Origin: Candidatus Undinarchaeota archaeon
GTDB taxonomy: Archaea; SpSt-1190; JASMDC01
Assembly: GCA_964519305.1 (NCBI GenBank)
Contig: CAZFHY010000001.1
Span: 314,132 to 378,131 of the forward strand
Length of the DNA stretch: 64,000 bases
Direction: 5' to 3'
The notes below the pieces were generated by a model, which saw nothing but the letters and a program-made list of their open reading frames with translations, had not been told where the DNA came from and did no database searches. Each line of letters begins with the position of its first letter. Position 1 is the stretch's first letter. Both the position numbers and the translations under genes were made by a program. Shown here one piece after another: positions 31,886 to 40,149 of the stretch.

Positions 31886-32514
31886 ACATCCGAAAGATCG
31901 GCGGGTACACGCCCATCCTCGAGGTCCAGCTCAACGAAGGCGAGTCCATCATGTGCGAGGCGGGGGCCATGATCTATGCGTCGTCCTCCACTCACATGGA
32001 GAGCCTGGTCGGCGGTCTTTTCAACGCGATCAAGAAGTGGCTGACGGGCGAGACGATCGCCGTGAACAGGTACACCGGACCGGGTGTCATCGGTCTCTCG
32101 GCCTCGTCCCCCGGGATGATCAAGGAGATCGACCTGGGGCCGGGACAGTCCGTCGACGTGTGCAAGGGCGCGTTCATGGCCGGCGACGTCACCCTCTCCT
32201 ACGGCATCGAGCGTGTGTGGAAGGGCATCCTACCCTGGAAGTTCCTGTTCGGCGGCCAGGGTTTCTTCTATCAGAAGCTCACAGGACCCGGCAGGGTCTT
32301 CATCGTGGTCAAGGGGGACCTTGTCGAGGCCACCTTGGCCCAAGGACAGAAGATGGACCTCGACCAGGGATACATGGCCTACAAGGACCCGTCTGTCGAG
32401 GTCGACCTCACGAGGATCAAGGGATTGCGTAAAGTGTTCATCGGGGGCGAGGGGCTCTTCCTCCTCACATGCACGGGCCCTGGCAAGGTGGGCATCCAGA
32501 GCACGGGGTGGTGA
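31882..32514 (+). CDS. AIM24-family protein 2
   Basis: CEAGAM, FGGQGFF, GGEGLF, GPGKVGIQS. Confidence 0.85.
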   Translation: MNIRKIGGYTPILEVQLNEGESIMCEAGAMIYASSSTHMESLVGGLFNAIKKWLTGETIAVNRYTGPGVIGLSASSPGMIKEIDLGPGQSVDVCKGAFMAGDVTLSYGIERVWKGILPWKFLFGGQGFFYQKLTGPGRVFIVVKGDLVEATLAQGQKMDLDQGYMAYKDPSVEVDLTRIKGLRKVFIGGEGLFLLTCTGPGKVGIQSTGW

Positions 32515-32518
32515 TGGG

Positions 32519-33151
32519 ATGCAGACACGTATCATAGGGCATTTCGCACCGGTGATGGAGATCGACCTCTACCAGGGCGAGACCATCGTGTGCGAGCGCG
32601 GTGCCATGTTGTACGAGACGCCGGACATCCACTCAGACGCCGTGCTTGGTATGGGATTCTTCTCCCGTCTGTTCACCGGCGAGTCCGCTGCTCTGGACAA
32701 GTACGAGGGTCCCGGAACCGTAGGAATCGCTGCGGGCAAGCCCGGGATGATCAAGGAGCTCGACCTCCAGCCCGGCCAGGCCATCGACATCGCCCACTCG
32801 GGTTTCCTTGCCATGGAGCCCACGGTACAGTTCTCTATCTCACTTGCGTCCCACAACCTCGTCAAGCTCATAGGCATGGCCAGCTTCGCCCGGGACAACC
32901 TCATCTTCCAGAACCTGACGGGACCGGGAAAGGTGTTCATGCACGTCCACGGGGACTACGTCATTACGTATCTTGAGCAGGGCCAGACCATGATGATCGA
33001 TCAGGGCTATCTAGTGTTCAAGGACCACAGCGTCGAGCTGGAGCTGGTCCGCGTCCACGGCATCGAGAACATCCTCATCGGGGGCGAGGGGCTATTCCTG
33101 CTACAGGTCTCAGGACCGGGGTACGTGGGCATACAGTCGATGAGGGGGTGA
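32519..33151 (+). CDS. AIM24-family protein 3
   Basis: CERGAM, FTGES, GGEGLF, GPGYVGIQS. Confidence 0.85.
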   Translation: MQTRIIGHFAPVMEIDLYQGETIVCERGAMLYETPDIHSDAVLGMGFFSRLFTGESAALDKYEGPGTVGIAAGKPGMIKELDLQPGQAIDIAHSGFLAMEPTVQFSISLASHNLVKLIGMASFARDNLIFQNLTGPGKVFMHVHGDYVITYLEQGQTMMIDQGYLVFKDHSVELELVRVHGIENILIGGEGLFLLQVSGPGYVGIQSMRG

Positions 33152-33486
33152 ACAAGGACATGGTGTTGTACACACAGGGCGAGCCGGGAGGGACGTACGA
33201 GCTACATCAGCCTGAGTACGACGGGTTCCGGTCCGTGGAGGAGTACACACAGATGCCGGGACTACCTGCATCGGACTCGTTCACCGTGCCCGGGTTCGTG
33301 CTCAACTACTACATAATCGTATACTTCTTGGGGATGCACCTCCACAAGATCACACGCATATTCTACAGGACGAAGGCAGGTCCGATCGCCGCCGGACTGG
33401 AGTTTGTGGTCGTTTTCGGGCTCGCCCTCCTGCCGCTCTGGCTGCCATTGGCGCTCGTCTACCTAGTGTTCGTGATGGGCATATAG
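33148..33486 (+). CDS. Small membrane protein, last gene of the AIM24 operon
   Basis: GTGA overlap; two hydrophobic segments. Confidence 0.6.
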   Translation: MNKDMVLYTQGEPGGTYELHQPEYDGFRSVEEYTQMPGLPASDSFTVPGFVLNYYIIVYFLGMHLHKITRIFYRTKAGPIAAGLEFVVVFGLALLPLWLPLALVYLVFVMGI

Positions 33487-33609
33487 TCGCGGTCCCACTG
33501 GCGGGAGTACTTGAGATTCTACCGGCCTAAGTGCTCATCACGATTGTGATAACTATCGTTATATACCTGGGGCGCCTATTATTCTAGTAGCGCGAGAAGT
33601 TAGAGGTGC

Positions 33610-34203
33610 GTGAGCTTGAAATCGAGATATTTAATTCTAGGATTAGTGCTGTTGACGGTCCTGGGCGTCGTCCTTGCGTCCGGTCAGTCATTCTGGACAG
33701 AGGACTGGGGTTCAGGCCAGGACAACGGTCTGAGGCTCCTCATCGTTGAGGAGGATGCTGTGGAGGAAGAGGTCGCCCCGGAAGAGGAGGCGGTCGTCGA
33801 TGGACCACAGCTGGTGCTCGTTGAGAAACCTAAAGAAGAGGTAGTGGACGAGCCACCTGCAACGGTCACCCCTGCTGTCCTTCTGGATACGCCCATGAGC
33901 TTCCGTGATGATGGTGTCGTCAAGGCACCGACGACCATACCCGATGGACGAATCATCGCTACGTTCCCTGCAGGACAGTACATCATCGTCAAGCTCGAGG
34001 ACGAGGAGGGGATCATGTGGGTTGTCCTTCTGGACAGATGGACCAAGGAGGTCATCAAGTCATTCCAAGTGGAAGGCAAGTTCGGTAAGAACAGCCCCCA
34101 CCACGGTCGTTGGGGCCACCCCTGCGGCAGAAAGCGCAGGTTCCATCATGGATGTCGGAAGAGGCGCGGATTCCATCAAGGATGCATGAAAAAAGCCGCC
34201 TGA
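33610..34203 (+). CDS. Signal/anchor-bearing hypothetical protein with basic Cys/His C-terminal repeat
   Basis: N-terminal KSRY plus hydrophobic stretch; tail CGRKRRFHHGCRKRRGFHQGC. Confidence 0.6.
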   Translation: MSLKSRYLILGLVLLTVLGVVLASGQSFWTEDWGSGQDNGLRLLIVEEDAVEEEVAPEEEAVVDGPQLVLVEKPKEEVVDEPPATVTPAVLLDTPMSFRDDGVVKAPTTIPDGRIIATFPAGQYIIVKLEDEEGIMWVVLLDRWTKEVIKSFQVEGKFGKNSPHHGRWGHPCGRKRRFHHGCRKRRGFHQGCMKKAA

Positions 34204-34205
34204 AG

Positions 34206-34541
34206 CTACCTTGACTCTTTCCATGCACGCCCGCAGCGCAGACACTTGTAGAACTGTGTCGGCGGCTCGTCGGGGCGCCGGGTCTGTAGCTGCCAGGTCA
34301 TCACGCCGACACGACCGCAGTTACGGCAGCGGACCTTGAGCGTGCCCATTTTCTTAGCCATCTCCTCAACGTCGATGACTGCGATATCCTTATCCCGGTC
34401 GTCAGGGGTCGTGCGCTCCTCCATCTCCTTCCCGCACTTCTCGCAGCGCATTTTCCTGACGTCGCCGAACCCCACGAGCAGCAGATCACCTCCGCAGTCC
34501 GGACAGGTGCCGGCCTTCAGGAGCTTGGGGCGGACGGGCAT
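34206..34541 (-). CDS. tfs: Transcription factor S (TFS / RpoM-like)
   Basis: Two Zn ribbons (CPDC-CEKC; CRNC-CLRC) and QTRRPDEPPTQFYKC with the catalytic DE intact. Confidence 0.85.
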   Translation of the reverse strand: MPVRPKLLKAGTCPDCGGDLLLVGFGDVRKMRCEKCGKEMEERTTPDDRDKDIAVIDVEEMAKKMGTLKVRCRNCGRVGVMTWQLQTRRPDEPPTQFYKCLRCGRAWKESR

Positions 34542-34616
34542 CGTCGGTGTATGAAGAAGGGAGGTTTATGAGGATTTCGGACTCGAAGCACTGCCCTCTC
34601 GGTCACGGATAGCATC

Positions 34617-34627
34617 GGAAAGAAAGG
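34617..34627 (-). terminator. Pyrimidine tract just after the last repeat unit
   Basis: Minus strand CCTTTCTTTCC a few nt after the closing stem of the final helix. Confidence 0.4.
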
Positions 34628-35425
34628 TTGGGACACAGGGGCGCCTTCCGCGGTACTGTTGCCAGCACCACTTCGGGCGTCCCTGTTGCGGACCCTCCCC
34701 GCCCGCGACCGGAGCCGCGTTCGGTTCTTGACCGCTCCGCCCCGCGACGCCGAAACGCCGCCGGTCGGCCCTGCCGGGCCTCGGGAGCGGGGATGCGCAC
34801 CCGGACGCCGTTTCCGGCACCCTTTGGGCATCCTCGCCGCGGCCTCCCGTTCCCCGGAACGTACGCCCCGGTTCTATTCAGGCCGCGCCGCTGTACCTTC
34901 GCTTCCACGCTGATCCAACGACCCACCGGGTCCCCGATACGCGACACGTCCTCCCGGACACCGTTGCCGGCACCCCTTCGGACACGCCCCGCCACGGCCC
35001 ACCCTTCCCCGCGGCTTGCGCCACGGAGCACCGGGCCGCACCGCCCGCCCGACGCCGAAGCGCCGACCGACCGGACCGGAGCCGGTACCAGGCACACCCT
35101 CCCAAGCACCGTTGCCGGCACCCTTTCAGGCATCCCTCGCCGCGACCGTCGCACCTCCACGGCTTGCGCCGCAGCGGTTGTCGGCCGCACCCCCCGCCAG
35201 CGCCGAAGCGCCGCCGAGCGGCCCGGGACCGGTGCCAGACACACCATCCCAAGCGCCGTTGCCAGCGCCCTTTCAGGCATCCCTTGCAGCGACATCAGCG
35301 CCCGTCAGCTTGCGCGTCAGGGCCCCTCTGTCGCACCGCCCAACCGACGCCGAAGCGTCACCGGACGGCCCGCGACCCCTGCCCGGTTCGCCCCGGAGGG
35401 CGCCTTGACAAAGGCCGGACCCCTC
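34620..35425 (-). ncRNA. Candidate large structured ncRNA made of five ~150-nt three-helix units
   Basis: Repeated hairpins with GCAA/GAAA and UUCG/UCCG tetraloops; stem changes between copies keep pairing on the minus strand; own promoter; unit spacing 152/153/148/147 nt. Confidence 0.75.
34634..35375. repeat. Degenerate tandem repeat, 5 copies, period 147-153 nt
   Basis: Core like CCGTTGCCGGCACCC in 20-mers at 34651, 34803, 34956, 35104, 35251; core like GACGCCGAAGCGCC at 34746, 35051, 35199, 35346. Confidence 0.9.
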
Positions 35426-35437
35426 GCTATAGTAGTA

Positions 35438-35454
35438 GGAAGTTTAAACCTTCC
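35438..35454. promoter_or_regulatory. Near-palindromic BRE/TATA element, possibly bidirectional (ncRNA and mutSL)
   Basis: GGAAGTTTAAACCTTCC; minus strand reads GGAAGGTTTAAA, matching promoters near 24261, 26460, 61786 and 63074. Confidence 0.65.
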
Positions 35455-35648
35455 GGATTAAGTGCGCGACGCCACTGCAGGGTGGGTCCGACACGATGTC
35501 AGCGTGGGTGGTGGCGCACGGTAGGGATCTCGTCGGAGCACGGTCGCCAGACGGCTCGGCCTGCCCATCCACAGGACATAAAAGTCTACCTTCCTTCCTG
35601 ACGACGGGAGGGTGACGACTGGGTAAACCAAAGCAAAAGGAGACGCCC

Positions 35649-38306
35649 ATGACCCGGCAGTACCGGGAAATGAAGCGACAGTACCCTGACGCCGTGCTCT
35701 TCTTCCGGATGGGCGATTTCTTCGAGACCTTCGGTGAAGATGCTGTCAAGACCAGCAAGGCTCTCGACATCGTGCTCACCTCCCGCAACCGCGGTTCGCC
35801 CCAAGAGACCAAGCTCGCCGGGTTCCCCCACCACGCGCTGGACAACTACATCGGCCGGATGCTCAGGGCAGGACACAAGATCGCCGTTTGCGAGCAGCTC
35901 GAGGACCCCAAGAAGGCCAAGGGCCTGGTCAAACGGGGCGTGATCCGGGTCTACACGCCCGGTACGCTGATGGAGGGTTTCCTGCTTGACGAGAAGGAGA
36001 ACAACTTCCTGGCCGCCGTGTCCGCCGGTGGCGGTTCGTACGGTCTTGCTGTCATCGACATCTCGACCGGCGAGTTCATGGCCACCCAGTTCGACGGCGA
36101 CGATGCTGCAACCGAGCTCAACGCCGAGCTCGTCCGGCTCGGGCCTGCCGAGATCCTCGTCCCGGAGTGGCTGCGACAGGATGAGGGATTCGTCAGGCTG
36201 GTACGAGTGCAGTCCGTGATGCGTCTCTCGGACTTCCCCGACGCGCACTTCGCCTACGAGCGGGCGTACGACATAGTGCGCGATCACTTCGGCACGCTCA
36301 CTCTTGACGGGTTCGGGCTGGAGGACCGGCGTCTGGCCGTGTCATCGGCCGGAGCCGCGCTGGTGTACCTCCGGGAGACGTTCAAGGGCACCAGTGAGCA
36401 CATCCGCGTGCTCCACCCTTACTCGACCGACGACGTGCTCGTCATCGACGCCGTATCCTCCCGGAACCTGGAGCTGGTGCGCAGCATCCGCACGAACGAC
36501 ACCACGAACACGCTCCTCGAGGTTCTGGACCATTCCACGACACCCATGGGCGGCCGGCTACTACGCCGTTGGCTCCTGCGTCCTTTAACGGATGTGGCCG
36601 CCATCGACCGACGACTGGATGCCGTTGGCGAGCTCCTGGAACAGCAGCTGGTGCGCGACGACCTGCGTGACCTGCTCAGGGGTGTGTCCGACCTGGAGCG
36701 GCTCGCCACACGCATCGTGTCCGGTACCGCCAATGCACGGGACCTCGTCTCGCTACGCGACTCGTTGCTGACGCTCCCGCATATCCGGGAGCAGCTGGCC
36801 GAAAGGTCCGCGGCCATCCTTACCGAGGCCTCCGAGACCCTGCCCGACCTCGTCGACGTCGCCGAGCTGATCTCACGCGCCATCATCGAGTCTCCCCCTA
36901 CCGCCGTGCGGGAGGGGGGCATCATCCGCGAGGGCTTCGATACCGACCTGGACGAACTGCGTGCACTGTCGCGCTCGGGCAAGGACTGGATCGCCACCAT
37001 GCAGGAGACGGAGCGCAAGCGTACGGGCATCAGGTCGTTGCGCGTAGGTTTCAACAAGGTCTTCGGCTACTACATCGAGGTCACACGACCCAATCTAGAG
37101 CTCGTCCCCGACAACTACATCCGCAAGCAGACGCTGGCCAATGCCGAGCGGTTCATCACGGAAGAGCTCAAGGAGTACGAGTCCAAGGTGCTCACGGCCG
37201 AGGAGCGGTCGGTGGCCCTGGAGTACGAACTGTTCTGTCGGGTACGCTCCCAGGTCGCAGAGAGCGCGGCCGATGTACAGGACGCCGCGCAGGTGCTGGC
37301 CCGTATCGACGTGCTGGCGTGCCTCGCCCAGGTCGCCCACGACCGGGATTACAAGCGACCACAGGTGAACGATGGCGACCGCGTCCGCATCCTCGCCGGC
37401 CGCCACCCGGTGGTGGAGCGTACCATAGGTCGGGGCGGTTTCATCCCCAATGACACGACCCTGGACTGCGGCGAGAACCGGTTCATGCTCATCACCGGCC
37501 CCAATATGGCCGGCAAGTCCACTTACCTGCGTCAGGTGGCGCTCATCGTGCTCATGACGCAGATGGGCTCGTTCGTCCCGGTACTGGAGGCCGTCATCGG
37601 CGTAGTGGACCGGATATTCACACGCGTGGGAGCGCACGACGACCTGGCATCGGGTCAGTCGACGTTCATGGTCGAGATGAACGAGACGAGCAACATCCTT
37701 CATAACGCATCGTCGCGCAGCCTAGTCCTTTTGGACGAGATCGGTCGGGGGACGAGCACGTTCGATGGCCTGTCCATCGCCTGGGCGGTGACCGAGTACC
37801 TGCACTCCCACCCGGAGAAGGGGTGCAAGACGCTGTTCGCCACCCACTACCACCAGCTCACCGTGCTCGAGGACGAGCTGGCGGGGCTGCGTAACCTCTC
37901 CATCGCCATAAAGGACGACGGGGGCAGACTGGTGTTCCTGCGCAAGATGGTGGACGGGCCGGCGGACCGCTCCTACGGAATAGAGGTGGCCCAGCTGGCC
38001 GGATTCCCCGAGGATGTGCTGGACCGCGCCCGACAGGTGTTGGGGACGCTGGAGGACCCGGACCATCCCGGGAGCCAGGCCTTGGCCATCGGACCACTGG
38101 CGCGACCACCGCCCCGTGCACCACAGGTGCGGACAGAGGAGCCCGAGCCCCCGCCCAAGCAGGCGTCCCTGGTGGAGTTCACCGCGGGTGCCACGGTCCT
38201 CGACGAGCTGTCGGACCTCAACCTGAACGAGATGACCCCCGTCCAGGCGCTGAACAAGCTGGAGGAGCTCAAGCGTCGGGCACAAGGTGGTGACGATGAT
38301 GACTGA
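35649..38306 (+). CDS. mutS: DNA mismatch repair protein MutS (MutS1)
   Basis: FFRMGDFFETF, GPNMAGKST, STFMVEM, DEIGRGT, FATHYH, SYGIEVA; true start may be CTG 35619. Confidence 0.97.
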   Translation: MTRQYREMKRQYPDAVLFFRMGDFFETFGEDAVKTSKALDIVLTSRNRGSPQETKLAGFPHHALDNYIGRMLRAGHKIAVCEQLEDPKKAKGLVKRGVIRVYTPGTLMEGFLLDEKENNFLAAVSAGGGSYGLAVIDISTGEFMATQFDGDDAATELNAELVRLGPAEILVPEWLRQDEGFVRLVRVQSVMRLSDFPDAHFAYERAYDIVRDHFGTLTLDGFGLEDRRLAVSSAGAALVYLRETFKGTSEHIRVLHPYSTDDVLVIDAVSSRNLELVRSIRTNDTTNTLLEVLDHSTTPMGGRLLRRWLLRPLTDVAAIDRRLDAVGELLEQQLVRDDLRDLLRGVSDLERLATRIVSGTANARDLVSLRDSLLTLPHIREQLAERSAAILTEASETLPDLVDVAELISRAIIESPPTAVREGGIIREGFDTDLDELRALSRSGKDWIATMQETERKRTGIRSLRVGFNKVFGYYIEVTRPNLELVPDNYIRKQTLANAERFITEELKEYESKVLTAEERSVALEYELFCRVRSQVAESAADVQDAAQVLARIDVLACLAQVAHDRDYKRPQVNDGDRVRILAGRHPVVERTIGRGGFIPNDTTLDCGENRFMLITGPNMAGKSTYLRQVALIVLMTQMGSFVPVLEAVIGVVDRIFTRVGAHDDLASGQSTFMVEMNETSNILHNASSRSLVLLDEIGRGTSTFDGLSIAWAVTEYLHSHPEKGCKTLFATHYHQLTVLEDELAGLRNLSIAIKDDGGRLVFLRKMVDGPADRSYGIEVAQLAGFPEDVLDRARQVLGTLEDPDHPGSQALAIGPLARPPPRAPQVRTEEPEPPPKQASLVEFTAGATVLDELSDLNLNEMTPVQALNKLEELKRRAQGGDDDD

Positions 38307-40149
38307 GATCCATGTACTGTCCGACGTCGTGGCGAACCAGATCGCCGCGGGTGAGGTGGTCGAGCGGCCTGCTTCTGTAGTGAAGGAGCTTGTGGAGAAC
38401 GCTCTGGACGCCGGATCTACCCGGATCGAGGTGCGCATCACCGATGGCGGTAAGGAGCTTGTGGCCGTGCGCGACAACGGCCGATCCATGACCGCCGAGG
38501 ACGCTGAGCTCTGCTTCGAACGTCACGCCACATCAAAGCTCGTAACCATCGATGACCTGGGCGAGCTGGGCACCCTGGGATTCAGGGGCGAGGCGTTGCC
38601 CTCTATCGCATCCGTCGCCCTTGTGCGGCTGGTCACCTGTCGTGATCCGCTGGCGGGAGCGACCGAGGTGCGGGTTGAGGGAGGTCGGACGGTATCGGTC
38701 CAGCCCACCGCTGCGCCCACGGGCACCGAGGTAGAGGTGCGCGAACTGTTCTTCAACACGCCCGCCCGGCGCAAGCATCTGCGTGCAACGGCAACGGAGC
38801 TGGGCCACGTCACCGAGGTCGTGAACGCCGCCGCACTGGCCCACGCCGATATCTCCTTCAGCCTAGAGCACGGGGGGCACACACTCCTGCTGACGCCGGG
38901 TTCCGGCGAGCTCAAGGCCGCGGCCATGGCGGTCCTGGGCAAGGACGTCGCCCGGTACATGGTGGCCGTGGACGACGACAGGGACGGAGTGCGTGCGTAC
39001 GGCCTCATCGTACCCCCTGACGCCCCGGCCCCGCCTGCTCGACCGCCTTTCGTGTTCGTCAACGGTCGACCTGTGCGCATGCCCCTCCTGCGCCGCGCGC
39101 TGTCAGAGGGTTACAGGGGCACCCTCCCGCCGGGCAGGAACGTGCCACCAGGTGTGCTCTTCATCGAGGTAGATCCATCCGAGGTCGACGTGAACGTCCA
39201 TCCCGCCAAGCGCGAGGTGCGGTTCGTCCACCCGTCCAAGGTGGCCGACGCCGTGGCCGCAGTGGTGGCGGACGCGCTCGCTGCACGGGCTCCGGTCTTC
39301 CGTGCCGCCGGTGCGGGGACGCCCTTGGCACCATCGACGCAGCAGGAACCATTACCGGGGACAGTGGGTGCTGACAGGGCGGCTCGGGGCATTCTCCGGC
39401 CCACCGCCAGGCCCGCAGGGAAGGTCACTCCGGCCAAGGGCAGTGTCGGGACGCGGTCCGGCCAGGTCCAGGCGGTGCTGGCAAGAGCACAGGAAACGGC
39501 GCCATCAGGCCGGACCGATACACCAGTCGAGGACCTGCCCCAGCAGGATCGGTTCGATGGACGTTTCGCAGGTCTTATCTACATCGGCGAGCTGTTCGAC
39601 ACCTACCTGCTCTTCCAGGGACGTGACGAGCTGCTGATGGTCGACCTCCACGCGGCCGCCGAGCGCGTCAAGTACGAACAGCTCGTACGGTCGCACGCCG
39701 ACGGCGATGTCGGAGGCCAGGAACTGGTGGCACCCCTGGTGCTCGAACTAGGACCGCGGGAAGCGGTGCTCCTGAAGGACCGGTTGGACGAGCTGGCCGG
39801 ATTGGGGCTAGTCATCGAGCCCTTCGGCGGGAACAGCTTCCAGGTGTGCCGCGTGCCCGTCGTGCTCGGTAGGACCGCCGGTCCCGATCAGGTGCGTGCG
39901 CTCATCGATGACATCCTCCGCCTCGGAAAGCCCAAGCACAGGGAGTCACGAACGGACGCCATCCTCAAGATCATGGCCTGTCGCGGCTCCATCAAGGCAG
40001 GCGAGCGCCTCACACCCGCGCAGGCCGAGGACCTGCTCCGCAAGCTCCTGCTATGCGAGCACCCCTGGAACTGCCCACACGGCAGACCCACAATCGTCGG
40101 CCTGTCCCGTACGCGTATCGAGAAGGACTTCTCAAGGATTGTAGCGTAG
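38296..40149 (+). CDS. mutL: DNA mismatch repair protein MutL
   Basis: IAAGEVVERP, KELVENALDA, HATSK, GFRGEAL, DVNVHPAKREV, ACR, CPHGRP. Confidence 0.95.
   Translation: MMTEIHVLSDVVANQIAAGEVVERPASVVKELVENALDAGSTRIEVRITDGGKELVAVRDNGRSMTAEDAELCFERHATSKLVTIDDLGELGTLGFRGEALPSIASVALVRLVTCRDPLAGATEVRVEGGRTVSVQPTAAPTGTEVEVRELFFNTPARRKHLRATATELGHVTEVVNAAALAHADISFSLEHGGHTLLLTPGSGELKAAAMAVLGKDVARYMVAVDDDRDGVRAYGLIVPPDAPAPPARPPFVFVNGRPVRMPLLRRALSEGYRGTLPPGRNVPPGVLFIEVDPSEVDVNVHPAKREVRFVHPSKVADAVAAVVADALAARAPVFRAAGAGTPLAPSTQQEPLPGTVGADRAARGILRPTARPAGKVTPAKGSVGTRSGQVQAVLARAQETAPSGRTDTPVEDLPQQDRFDGRFAGLIYIGELFDTYLLFQGRDELLMVDLHAAAERVKYEQLVRSHADGDVGGQELVAPLVLELGPREAVLLKDRLDELAGLGLVIEPFGGNSFQVCRVPVVLGRTAGPDQVRALIDDILRLGKPKHRESRTDAILKIMACRGSIKAGERLTPAQAEDLLRKLLLCEHPWNCPHGRPTIVGLSRTRIEKDFSRIVA

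What the first reader, a model, noticed from the sequence alone, without database searches (positions are those of the whole stretch)
34620..35425. Candidate new large ncRNA: five tandem ~150-nt three-helix modules with GNRA/UNCG tetraloops and covariation
Seen (minus strand, 5'->3'). Helix I in all five units: GGGCGCUG-GCAA-CGGCGCUU (35270-35251), GGGUGCCG-GCAA-CGGUGCUU (35123-35104), GGGUGCCG-GCAA-CGGUGUCC (34975-34956), GGGUGCCG-GAAA-CGGCGUCC (34822-34803), UGGUGCUG-GCAA-CAGUACCG (34670-34651). All eight pairs survive in every copy through C-G/U-G/U-A swaps, and the loop stays GNRA. In four copies the helix continues through a 4x4 purine loop (GAAR/SGGA) into an outer stem, e.g. GGCGUGUCC/GGACGUGUC. 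Helix II: GACGC-UUCG-GCGUC, GGCGC-UUCG-GCGCU, GGCGC-UUCG-GCGUC, GGCGU-UUCG-GCGUC, with one degenerate copy. Helix III: a closing stem such as GCGGCC/GGCCGC with an apical GCAA, GUAC or UCCG loop. Spacings of 152/153/148/147 nt break any reading frame, and the G-U wobbles only work on the minus strand. A matching BRE/TATA lies about 25 nt upstream and a pyrimidine tract downstream. Established: GNRA and c(UUCG)g loops plus covariation are hallmarks of functional RNA. Inference: an ~800-nt modular RNA, or a precursor of five RNAs, that does not match any archaeal RNA I recognise.
Basis: partly seen in the sequence, partly recalled or inferred. Interest (0 to 1): 0.92.

Follow-up and report, generated by a model that had tools for sequence, protein, structure and literature searches.

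The report
New modular structured RNA in an archaeon
Between two ordinary genes, a marine archaeon carries a gene for a large non-coding RNA built from five (seven in relatives) repeats of the same three-hairpin module; it matches no known RNA family, turns up in RNA sequencing data, and its function is unknown.

Summary
Window 35392-34636 (minus strand) holds five tandem ~150-nt units. Each unit is a row of three extended hairpins capped by UUCG or GNRA-type loops. Across 12 units (5 here, 7 in a congeneric genome), paralogues are only 53-75% identical, yet 92.7% of 454 pair cells are canonical, 11 of 38 pairs show double changes, and 34 of 36 apical loops are GNRA or UNCG. G.U pairs make up 24% of cells, which fixes the strand as minus. 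Between the two species, substitutions break pairs less often than expected (13 of 49 against about 22; P<0.001), and there is no codon periodicity. A 296-nt (two-unit) indel destroys any common reading frame. Conservation starts at a BRE/TATA-like promoter and ends at a perfectly conserved tail with a T tract. Metatranscriptome contigs from two studies cover only 34626-35394, bridge all four unit junctions, and leave the tfs and mutS flanks bare; contigs cannot show the strand. There is no Rfam hit. The covariance model hits one locus per genome in this genus and nothing in 15 phylum relatives or 448 other archaeal genomes. Verdict: a real, expressed, new lineage-restricted modular ncRNA. My mechanistic guess, unproven, is a multivalent protein-binding scaffold or sponge.

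The parts
35441..35483 (-). Conserved promoter block: BRE-like purine stretch (35456-35449) and TATA box TTTAAA (35448-35443). The inferred start of transcription is about 35420-35430.
   Evidence: Similarity between G000 and G001 begins here, although the upstream genes differ: divergent mutS in G000, an AbiEi/AbiEii pair in G001. The start site is inferred from the usual archaeal TATA-to-start distance (recalled), not measured.
35365..35430 (-). 5' leader with a hairpin (about 35413-35377) whose apical part is a 5-bp stem with a UCCG loop (35402-35389).
   Evidence: Two adjacent pairs, 35409-35381 and 35408-35382, change on both sides between G000 and G001 and stay paired. RNA contigs of two studies both end at 35394, inside the UCCG loop.
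35238..35392 (-). Module 1: linker, hairpin a (UUCG), hairpin b (GCAA), hairpin c (GCAA, 4x4 purine internal loop).
   Evidence: Covariance model hit at 116.5 bits; alignment A5 and consensus fold; loops.
35090..35237 (-). Module 2 (UUCG, GCAA, GCAA). The point where G001 carries 296 extra nt (two modules) lies at 35117/35116, inside hairpin c.
   Evidence: Covariance model hit at 128.2 bits; alignment blocks; loops.
34941..35089 (-). Module 3 (UUCG, GCAA, GCAA).
   Evidence: Covariance model hit at 111.7 bits; 95% identical to G001 module 5.
34791..34940 (-). Module 4, the most divergent: GGAA replaces UUCG in hairpin a, GUAC loop in hairpin b, GAAA in hairpin c.
   Evidence: Covariance model hit at 110.7 bits; loops and identities.
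34636..34790 (-). Module 5 (UUCG, UCCG, GCAA).
   Evidence: Covariance model hit at 114.6 bits; loops.
34610..34648 (-). 3' tail, identical in G000 and G001 over 39 nt. It contains the pyrimidine/T tract TTTCTTT (34625-34619), the likely archaeal termination site.
   Evidence: Alignment. An RNA contig of run X7 ends at 34626, directly before the T tract, and no RNA contig covers the tfs gene.
34206..34541 (-). Context, not part of the RNA: the transcription factor S (TFS) gene, with its own conserved ATAAA box 24-28 nt upstream of the ATG (34569-34565).
   Evidence: Pfam Zn_ribbon_TFIIS, E 3.6e-15. The box is conserved in G001. A leaderless tfs mRNA is an inference.

Best explanation
This is an independently transcribed, abundant, non-coding RNA. 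It is about 770-800 nt in this genome and about 1,070-1,100 nt in relatives. It runs from its own archaeal BRE/TATA promoter to a T-tract terminator just upstream of tfs. It is built from 5-7 tandem ~150-nt modules. Each module folds locally into three extended hairpins (outer stem, internal loop, inner stem, UUCG or GNRA-type tetraloop) followed by a variable linker. Selection acts on the base pairs. It also appears to act on the sequence of hairpin c, where the 5' strand is nearly invariant and the internal loop is a purine-rich GAAR/SGGA. I therefore propose that the RNA works in trans as a multivalent platform. Each module would offer the same binding surface for a still unidentified protein (or RNA) partner, so the RNA would scaffold or sequester several copies, and capacity would scale with module number. 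Shown here: the repeats, the structure, its conservation, the lack of coding signal, presence in RNA libraries, and multi-module RNA-derived contigs. Inferred: strand, exact ends, and the trans-acting scaffold or sponge role.
For: Structure. There are 38 consensus pairs over 12 modules. Of 454 pair cells, 92.7% are standard pairs, against 39-52% when the partners are slid. Eleven pairs change on both sides (1 of 500 shuffles reach this) and the covariation score is 0.400 against 0.312 (0 of 500). Paralogous modules are only 53-75% identical. Of 36 apical loops, 34 are GNRA or UNCG, and one position swaps UUCG for GGAA.

Strand. 110 of 454 cells are G.U pairs, and only 68.9% of cells would pair on the other strand. 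Fold z-scores are -4.97 on the minus strand and +1.26 on the plus strand.

Orthologue test. G000 and G001 differ at 73 of 816 positions, which touch 49 pairs. Thirteen pairs break, against 22.3 +/- 2.8 expected (P=0.0006). Four compensatory doubles occur against 0.9 expected (P=0.012). A third variant, from RNA run X13, breaks 6 of 25 touched pairs against 10.6 +/- 2.1 expected (P=0.025).

Not coding. Unit periods are 143-153 nt, mostly not multiples of 3. The species differ by 296-nt and 1-nt indels. Substitutions fall 29/23/21 by codon position. There is no Pfam hit, and the only relatives of the antisense ORF are two near-identical 7-module variants.

Expression. RNA-library contigs lie only on 34626-35394 within the 6,001 nt laid. 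They bridge all four module junctions. The tfs and mutS flanks have none, while a DNA run is flat at 12.6. In run X13, from another study, the k-mer depth is 108-216.

Own transcription unit. Conservation starts at the promoter and the 39-nt tail with the T tract is 100% conserved.

Modularity and variable valency. Module counts are 5 in G000 and 7 in G001, and an RNA contig carries 233 extra letters. The indel sits inside a module, consistent with unequal crossing-over (my inference).

Single locus. The covariance model finds 5 hits in G000 and 7 in G001, and nothing else in either genome.
Against: No partner has been identified, and nothing here tests binding. The neighbouring genes (tfs, mutS/mutL, AIM24, TrkH, two hypothetical proteins) do not point to an RNA-binding partner. 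All homologues come from one genus-level lineage, so the covariation rests on paralogues and on close orthologues, which are not independent samples. The RNA evidence consists of assembled contigs. These give no strand, no true ends and no reliable abundance, and the runs were found through the array's own words. For X13, at 90-95% identity, the flanks might simply be too diverged to be laid. Most pair changes are G-C/G-U transitions, which are cheap. In the orthologue test, 13 pairs of the single-sequence MFE model do break. The internal loop of hairpin c is not a canonical K-turn or any motif I could verify.
Confidence: 0.42

Rival explanations
1. Polycistronic precursor. The array is transcribed once and cut in the linkers into five to seven ~150-nt small RNAs, which are the functional species. 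This would resemble archaeal and eukaryotic clusters of small RNAs or tRNAs.
For: The modules are complete, autonomous folding units separated by variable linkers. Copy number varies between relatives. RNA contigs of two studies stop at the same base, 35394, in a hairpin loop, which could be a processing site.
Against: RNA-derived contigs bridge all four module junctions, so multi-module RNA exists. I found no tRNA-like element, no known ribozyme or processing-signal family at E<=10, and no conserved C/D boxes in the alignment. The linkers are the least conserved part of each module.
Confidence: 0.15
2. A single large folded RNA machine. The modules pack against each other through GNRA-loop/helix contacts into one defined tertiary architecture, comparable to OLE, GOLLD or ROOL. 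The function would then belong to the whole particle, not to each module.
For: There are many GNRA loops: 22 of 36 apical loops (12 in hairpin c, 8 in hairpin b, 2 in hairpin a). The RNA is large, has the second-highest GC of all 600-nt windows in the genome, and reaches high apparent abundance. That large ornate RNAs share these traits is recalled knowledge.
Against: Module number differs (5 against 7) between species whose modules are 88-95% identical, which is hard to reconcile with one fixed architecture. The consensus shows only local hairpins, and the long-range pairs of the MFE model are among those broken by substitutions. No 11-nt-type tetraloop receptor was noticed on reading; I did not search for one formally.
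Confidence: 0.15
3. Cis-acting leader or regulator of tfs. The array would be a very long 5' UTR, or a transcription-interference or attenuation element, controlling the transcription factor S gene directly downstream on the same strand.
For: It lies immediately upstream of tfs on the same strand in both genomes, although the upstream neighbour differs. TTTCTTT is a short T tract and could be a leaky or regulated terminator.
Against: No RNA contig extends past 34626 into tfs. tfs keeps its own conserved ATAAA box 24-28 nt before the ATG. Synteny across only two congeneric genomes carries little weight.
Confidence: 0.08
4. No function of its own. The array would be a GC-rich tandem DNA repeat (satellite) that happens to be transcribed. 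Alternatively it would be part of a low-complexity Pro/Ala/Arg-rich protein gene on either strand.
For: Long ORFs are open on both strands: 277 aa on the plus strand and 230 aa on the minus strand. Gene callers elsewhere have called the antisense ORF (P0001, P0002). The distribution is very narrow.
Against: The frame is not conserved: there is a 296-nt indel, a 1-nt indel, and periods of 143, 148 and 152. Substitutions show no third-position excess (29/23/21). There is no Pfam hit. A profile search of 1.84 billion representatives returns only the query's own cluster. A real Pro/Gly-rich coding repeat in the same genome has periods of 15-48 nt, all multiples of 3. Paralogues at 53-75% identity keep 92.7% of pairs and stable tetraloops, and substitutions avoid breaking pairs. 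The promoter and tail are conserved.
Confidence: 0.07

Closest known systems
CsrB/RsmZ-type protein-sequestering RNAs of bacteria (recalled; no test of homology is possible)
   Same: It is a separate transcription unit producing an abundant non-coding RNA made of many copies of a similar hairpin element. Copy number varies between relatives, and a valency-based mode of action is plausible.
   Different: The modules here are ~150-nt three-hairpin composites, not ~20-nt GGA hairpins. The apical loops are UUCG or GNRA, with no GGA loops. The organism is an archaeon. No Rfam CsrB/Rsm model matches.
Large ornate bacterial ncRNAs: OLE, GOLLD, ROOL, HEARO, raiA (Rfam families; properties recalled)
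   Same: It is larger than 500 nt, densely structured, rich in GNRA loops, apparently highly expressed, and of unknown biochemical function.
   Different: No match to any of these covariance models at E<=10. Those RNAs are not built from tandem copies of one module. This one is archaeal and restricted to one genus-level lineage in the genomes searched.
Abundant RNAs known from marine metatranscriptomes (IMES-1 to IMES-4; Rfam, properties recalled)
   Same: It is found in seawater and marine sequencing runs, and at high k-mer depth in a metatranscriptome.
   Different: No Rfam match. This RNA is far larger and modular.
Eukaryotic repeat-containing lncRNAs that bind many copies of one protein (NORAD, FIRRE repeat domain, Xist A repeat; recalled)
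   Same: They contain tandem repeated RNA domains of roughly 100-160 nt in a long non-coding transcript, used as a multivalent binding platform.
   Different: Different domain of life, no sequence relation. This is an analogy only.
CRISPR and TIGR-type guide arrays
   Same: It is a tandem array in an intergenic region, transcribed as one precursor.
   Different: There is no repeat/spacer alternation: whole modules are homologous at 53-75% identity. The variable parts are 88-95% conserved between species. The period is 143-153 nt. A real CRISPR array picked up by my pattern scan (L167; period about 73, 37-nt repeat) looks quite different. In the preprint 10.64898/2026.10.21.760802, of which I read passages only, 96.1% of periodic array clusters have periods of 60-79, 18 or 5 nt.

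Membership tests
Any Rfam 15 family (4227 models, including SRP, RNase P, C/D sRNAs, riboswitches, self-cleaving ribozymes, OLE/GOLLD/ROOL/HEARO/raiA, IMES, Hgc RNAs) | Covariance-model score at or above the family's gathering score | tested here: not met
   There were 0 matches at gathering score in the whole window. At E<=10 in 33500-36500, the only row is a 16.7-bit chance match to Prion_pknot outside the array.
Protein-coding tandem repeat | Repeat period a multiple of 3, reading frame conserved between relatives, substitutions concentrated at third positions, and protein homologues | tested here: not met
   Periods are 147/148/153/152 in G000 and 147/143/153/148/153/152 in G001. There are 296-nt and 1-nt indels. 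Substitutions fall 29/23/21. No Pfam hit. Only two near-identical ORFs were found among 5.8 billion clusters, and only the query's own cluster among 1.84 billion representatives.
CsrB/Rsm-type sponge RNA | Multiple GGA motifs presented in hairpin loops | tested here: not met
   The 36 apical loops are UUCG (10), GGAA (2), GCAA (16), GCGA (1), GAAA (2), GUGA (1), UCCG (2) and GUAC (2). There is no A(N)GGA-type loop. Only the two GGAA loops contain the letters GGA.
CsrB/Rsm-type sponge RNA | Cognate CsrA/RsmA protein encoded in the genome | not tested
   I did not search G000 for CsrA. That it is a bacterial protein is recalled knowledge.
Box C/D sRNA cluster | C box (RUGAUGA) and D box (CUGA) in every unit, forming a K-turn | tested here: not met
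   Read from alignment A5: CUGA occurs in 4 of 12 modules (A1, A2, B1, B7). A UGAUG-like stretch occurs in only 2 of 12 (A1, B1). No Rfam C/D family matches.
tRNA or tRNA-like array | Cloverleaf detectable by ARAGORN | tested here: not met
   There were 0 tRNA or tmRNA genes in the whole window.
Self-cleaving ribozyme satellite (hammerhead, twister, HDV-like and others) | Match to a ribozyme core in each repeat | tested here: not met
   No ribozyme family matches at E<=10. CUGA and GAAA elements are not conserved across modules.
CRISPR/TIGR-type guide array | Conserved repeat alternating with unrelated, fast-changing spacers | tested here: not met
   Modules align along their whole length. Orthologous modules are 88-95% identical, including their variable parts.
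K-turn (L7Ae-binding) element in hairpin c | Three-nucleotide bulge followed by tandem sheared G.A pairs | tested here: inconclusive
   The loop is a symmetric 4x4 (3x4 in some modules) GAAR/SGGA purine loop. It could hold tandem G.A pairs but lacks the asymmetric bulge. No tool here scores K-turns.
Cis-regulatory leader or riboswitch of tfs | Transcript continuous with the downstream coding region | tested here: inconclusive
   RNA contigs stop at 34626 and none lies on tfs. However, contigs cannot prove absence of read-through.

The most novel reading that the evidence does not exclude
This is the founding example of a new class of archaeal giant modular RNAs. A highly abundant 0.8-1.1 kb transcript would use repeated three-hairpin modules to assemble a defined multi-subunit ribonucleoprotein, or would self-assemble through its many GNRA loops. 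Its cellular role would have no counterpart among known archaeal RNAs. It occurs in a lineage whose genome (3.6 Mb) is several times larger than those of the rest of its phylum.
Probability: 0.3. Interest if true: 0.85.

Novelty: new variant of a known kind. Interest (0 to 1): 0.66.

Why it matters
Large structured non-coding RNAs other than rRNA, RNase P and SRP RNA are rare in prokaryotes, and almost none are known from archaea. The few bacterial examples have each led to unexpected biology. This locus offers a clean case. It has its own promoter and terminator, a strong and strand-specific structural signal that survives 25-47% sequence divergence between modules, direct presence in metatranscriptomes, and a natural series of 5- and 7-module alleles that can be used to test whether function scales with module number. 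If a partner protein is found, it would be the first archaeal example of a multivalent scaffold or sponge RNA. The finding's weakness is its narrow distribution, one genus-level lineage so far. That limits both the statistical power of the covariation and its general importance.

Tried and rejected
1. Wider homologue search by DNA pattern. Scoring the 80 + 80 listed loci with model R1 gave best scores of 21.6 and 26.9 bits, against 108-128 bits for true modules. These were chance matches in high-GC bacteria and in CRISPR arrays (for example L167). These scans therefore say nothing about absence elsewhere. Records of the window's own genome may also have been left out of them.

2. Covariance-model search of genomes. 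Model R1 hit only G000 and G001 among the 17 genomes of the phylum. It hit 0 of 2, 6, 151, 133, 5 and 151 genomes of six other archaeal phyla. In the large batches Infernal's stricter filters were used. The model is built from close sequences (effective number 2.76), so distant relatives could be missed.

3. Taxonomic placement. The atlas search with MutS returned only generic bacterial MutS clusters and did not help. I did not pursue the identity of the organism further.

4. Coding hypothesis. Rejected; see the rivals. ORF-based searches did serve to find two more array variants, P0001 and P0002.

5. Other GC-rich, skewed places in the genome that might be sister RNAs. C8:44400-45200 is a Pro/Gly-rich coding repeat. 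L263, L264 and L265 have no Rfam match. I followed these no further.

6. A terminal stem pairing the 5' and 3' ends, and linker-linker stems that would close each module into a junction. Both are present in single-sequence MFE folds but absent from the consensus, and they are broken by substitutions. Rejected.

7. Parts of the laid stretch without RNA cover (32500-34625 and 35395-38500 in X7, X8 and X13) are reported as such. For X13 the flanks may be too diverged to be laid at 90% likeness.

8. Literature. Four full-text searches turned up no description of an RNA like this; I saw listings and abstract starts only. I read passages of preprint 10.64898/2026.10.21.760802. No supplements were consulted. 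Statements about CsrB, OLE, GOLLD, ROOL, IMES, NORAD, FIRRE, K-turns and archaeal promoter and terminator rules are recalled, not read here.

Full report
WHAT IS THERE

On the minus strand, between a divergent mutS gene (35649 onward, plus strand) and a transcription factor S gene (34541-34206, minus strand), lies a 1.1-kb gap with no Pfam-recognisable gene. Each has eight standard pairs and a GNRA loop, and they are spaced 147/148/153/152 nt apart. A degenerate version of the motif occurs four times in the window against 0.00 expected. Tandem Repeats Finder sees the period of 147-148 nt in the better-conserved first three units. The array has 72-74% G+C against 58-65% in the flanks, with a strong excess of G on the minus strand. 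It contains the second most GC-rich 600-nt window of the 3.63-Mb genome, which has a mean of 0.596 and sd of 0.039.

A SECOND GENOME AND MORE VARIANTS

One other genome of the same genus (G001) has the same element at 84-91% identity, with seven modules instead of five. A global alignment gives three collinear blocks. G001 carries 296 extra nt (two modules) at a point inside hairpin c of module 2 (35117/35116). I read this as the footprint of unequal crossing-over between modules (my inference). Orthologous modules are 88-95% identical, and paralogous modules only 53-75%.

Similarity between the two genomes starts about 35 nt upstream of a TTTAAA box preceded by a purine-rich BRE-like stretch (35456-35443). 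This holds even though G001 has an AbiEi/AbiEii toxin-antitoxin pair upstream, where G000 has mutS. At the other end, a 39-nt tail (34648-34610) containing TTTCTTT is identical in both. It is followed by a short diverged stretch and then a conserved ATAAA box 24-28 nt before the tfs start codon. The conserved block therefore looks like a self-contained archaeal transcription unit.

Searching the translated antisense ORF against 5.8 billion protein clusters found two more arrays that gene callers had mistaken for proteins, P0001 and P0002. Both are of the 7-module type and are 86-87% identical to G001 in that frame. A profile search of 1.84 billion representatives found nothing beyond the query's own cluster.

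STRUCTURE

The minus strand folds at -490.8 kcal/mol (z -4.97; 0 of 20 shuffles as good). The plus strand folds at -350.2 kcal/mol (z +1.26; 18 of 20 shuffles as good).

I aligned the 12 modules with boundaries placed after hairpin c. RNAalifold then gives 38 pairs in six helices, which form three extended hairpins:
- Hairpin a: a 6-bp outer stem, an internal loop, and a 4-bp inner stem with a UUCG loop.
- Hairpin b: a 6-bp outer stem, a large purine-rich internal loop, and a 7-bp inner stem with a GCAA loop.
- Hairpin c: a 7-bp outer stem, a 4x4 GAAR/SGGA loop, and an 8-bp inner stem with a GNRA loop.

Of 454 pair cells, 92.7% are standard pairs, against 39-52% when the 3' partners are slid by 1-3 columns. 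Eleven of the 38 pairs show changes on both sides (1 of 500 shuffles reach this). The covariation score is 0.400 against 0.312 (0 of 500). These shuffles ignore relatedness, so they overstate significance.

Of 36 apical loops, 34 belong to the GNRA or UNCG families. In module 4 and its orthologue, the UUCG of hairpin a is replaced by GGAA. G.U pairs make up 110 of the 454 cells, and on the opposite strand only 68.9% of cells would pair. This identifies the minus strand as the functional one.

I found no support for a closing helix that would make each module a three-way junction. Long-range and linker-linker pairs appear only in single-sequence folds, and several of them are broken by substitutions.

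SELECTION ON PAIRS, NOT ON CODONS

I used the MFE fold of the G000 sequence alone as the structural model. The 73 substitutions between G000 and G001 over 816 aligned nt touch 49 pairs. Thirteen pairs are broken, against 22.3 +/- 2.8 when the same substitutions are placed at random on the same bases (P=0.0006). Four are compensated on both sides, against 0.9 expected (P=0.012). Two of those four are adjacent pairs in the 5' leader hairpin.

The 40 listed (of 53) differences of a third variant, seen in RNA run X13, break 6 of 25 touched pairs, against 10.6 +/- 2.1 expected (P=0.025).

Substitutions fall 29/23/21 on the three codon positions. The long ORFs on both strands are explained by composition, since several frames are open at once. 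They have no Pfam match. Their frames cannot be shared between G000 and the 7-module forms because of the 296-nt and 1-nt indels. As a contrast, a real Pro/Gly-rich coding repeat elsewhere in the same genome has periods of 15, 18, 21, 24, 30, 33 and 48 nt.

EXPRESSION

Sampled 31-letter words of the stretch are held completely by five DNA runs and at 0.97 by a sixth; the six come from two studies, and the five complete holders may be the source of this assembly. They are held in part by metatranscriptome runs. I laid three RNA runs and one DNA run on 6,001 nt (32500-38500).
- DNA run X1 is flat at depth 12.6 throughout.
- RNA run X7 gives two 100%-identical contigs, 34626-34830 and 35104-35267.
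- RNA run X8 gives one, 35105-35394.
- RNA run X13, from a different study, gives five contigs at 90-99% identity (four of them at 90-95%), tiling 34742-35394 at k-mer depths of 28-216. One is a 710-nt contig with 233 extra letters, indicating an allele with more modules.

No RNA contig touches tfs, mutS or any other flank. Together the contigs bridge all four module junctions.

The X7 contig ends at 34626, directly before the T tract. The X8 and X13 contigs both end at 35394, in the UCCG loop of the leader hairpin. By the tool's own standard that is only a weak hint of a real 5' end. It sits oddly with the compensatory pairs at 35409/35408, which imply that the primary transcript starts further upstream. 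A processed 5' end is one way to reconcile the two.

Caveats apply. The runs were found through this very sequence. Contigs carry no strand, no true ends and no reliable level. The X13 flanks may be too diverged to be laid.

WHAT IT IS NOT

No Rfam family matches, either at gathering thresholds over the whole window or at E<=10 over 33500-36500. There are no tRNA-like genes. No other copy exists in the genome: a DNA search gives best E of 0.12 elsewhere, and the covariance model has five hits, all in the array. It is not a CRISPR-like array, a C/D sRNA cluster or a known ribozyme satellite (see the membership table).

Model R1 finds the element in 2 of the 17 genomes of the phylum, namely the two of this genus. 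It finds it in 0 of 448 genomes sampled from six other archaeal phyla. My two pattern scans of the large contig collections were too unspecific and returned only chance hits, so the wider distribution remains open. Four literature searches and one preprint read in passages revealed nothing comparable.

HOW IT MOST LIKELY WORKS

Shown here: a conserved, single-copy, own-promoter locus; an RNA structure under selection; no coding signal; presence of multi-module RNA in RNA libraries.

Inferred: the minus-strand transcript runs from about 35420-35430 to the T tract at 34619-34625, giving roughly 800 nt here and 1,100 nt in relatives.

Three features suggest that the unit of function is the module and that the modules act additively. 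First, the same three-hairpin module is repeated at 53-75% identity. Second, module number varies between close relatives. Third, the 5' strand and purine loop of hairpin c are conserved beyond what pairing requires. The best-fitting known logic is a multivalent scaffold or sponge for a protein or RNA partner. I hold this at about 0.4, because no partner is identified and nothing tests binding.

The alternatives are given with their tests in the rivals section: a precursor of ~150-nt RNAs (0.15), a single compact RNA machine (0.15), a cis-acting element for tfs (0.08), and a functionless or coding repeat (0.07). That the locus encodes a real, structured, expressed non-coding RNA I hold at about 0.9.

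NOVELTY AND VERDICT

It is a new RNA family with no detectable relation to any curated one. It is unusual in size and in its tandem modular build for an archaeon. It belongs to the broad known kind of large structured ncRNAs and repeat-module RNAs, so I rate it a new variant of a known kind rather than categorically new. It is worth follow-up.

Noticed in passing
whole genome G000 and its relatives: The phylum, which equals the class, holds only 17 species genomes. G000 and G001 are 3.6-3.8 Mb, while all 15 others are 0.6-1.2 Mb. This lineage has a genome several times larger than the rest of its phylum.
   Followed up: no
L010 68-1422 (G001): An AbiEi antitoxin / AbiEii nucleotidyltransferase toxin pair sits directly upstream of the RNA promoter in G001, where G000 has divergent mutS. 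It looks like an inserted mobile module, and it marks the upstream edge of the conserved RNA unit.
   Followed up: partly
window 35394: RNA contigs from two different studies (X8, X13) end at the same base, in the UCCG loop of the 5' leader hairpin. Compensatory changes at 35409/35408 imply that the RNA starts further upstream. It may be a processing site or a library artefact.
   Followed up: partly
G000:C8:44400-45200 (L263 1424-2130): This is another very GC-rich, skewed region. It is a Pro/Gly-rich protein-coding repeat with periods of 15-48 nt, all multiples of 3, inside a 391-aa ORF.
   Followed up: partly
G000:C25:16900-17900, C21:56900-57700, C16:71600-72700: These are low-GC islands (0.32-0.44 against a genome mean of 0.60) with extreme GC skew. 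They may be foreign DNA or other unusual elements.
   Followed up: no
L167 1-3100 (metagenome contig): This is a CRISPR array of at least 42 repeats with a period of about 73 nt and a 37-nt repeat ending in ATTGAAAC. My Helix I pattern picked it up by chance. Other multi-match loci (L146, L158, L178, L203) probably have the same explanation.
   Followed up: partly
window 35405-35433 (+): An 11-of-12 match to a bacterial sigma-70 promoter (TTGACA, 17 nt, TATAGT) lies on the plus strand inside the RNA's leader. It is presumably meaningless in an archaeon.
   Followed up: no
window 33148-33486 and 33610-34203 (+): Two ORFs convergent with tfs (112 aa and 197 aa, the latter with a hydrophobic N-terminus and His/Arg/Lys-rich C-terminus) have no Pfam match.
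   Followed up: no
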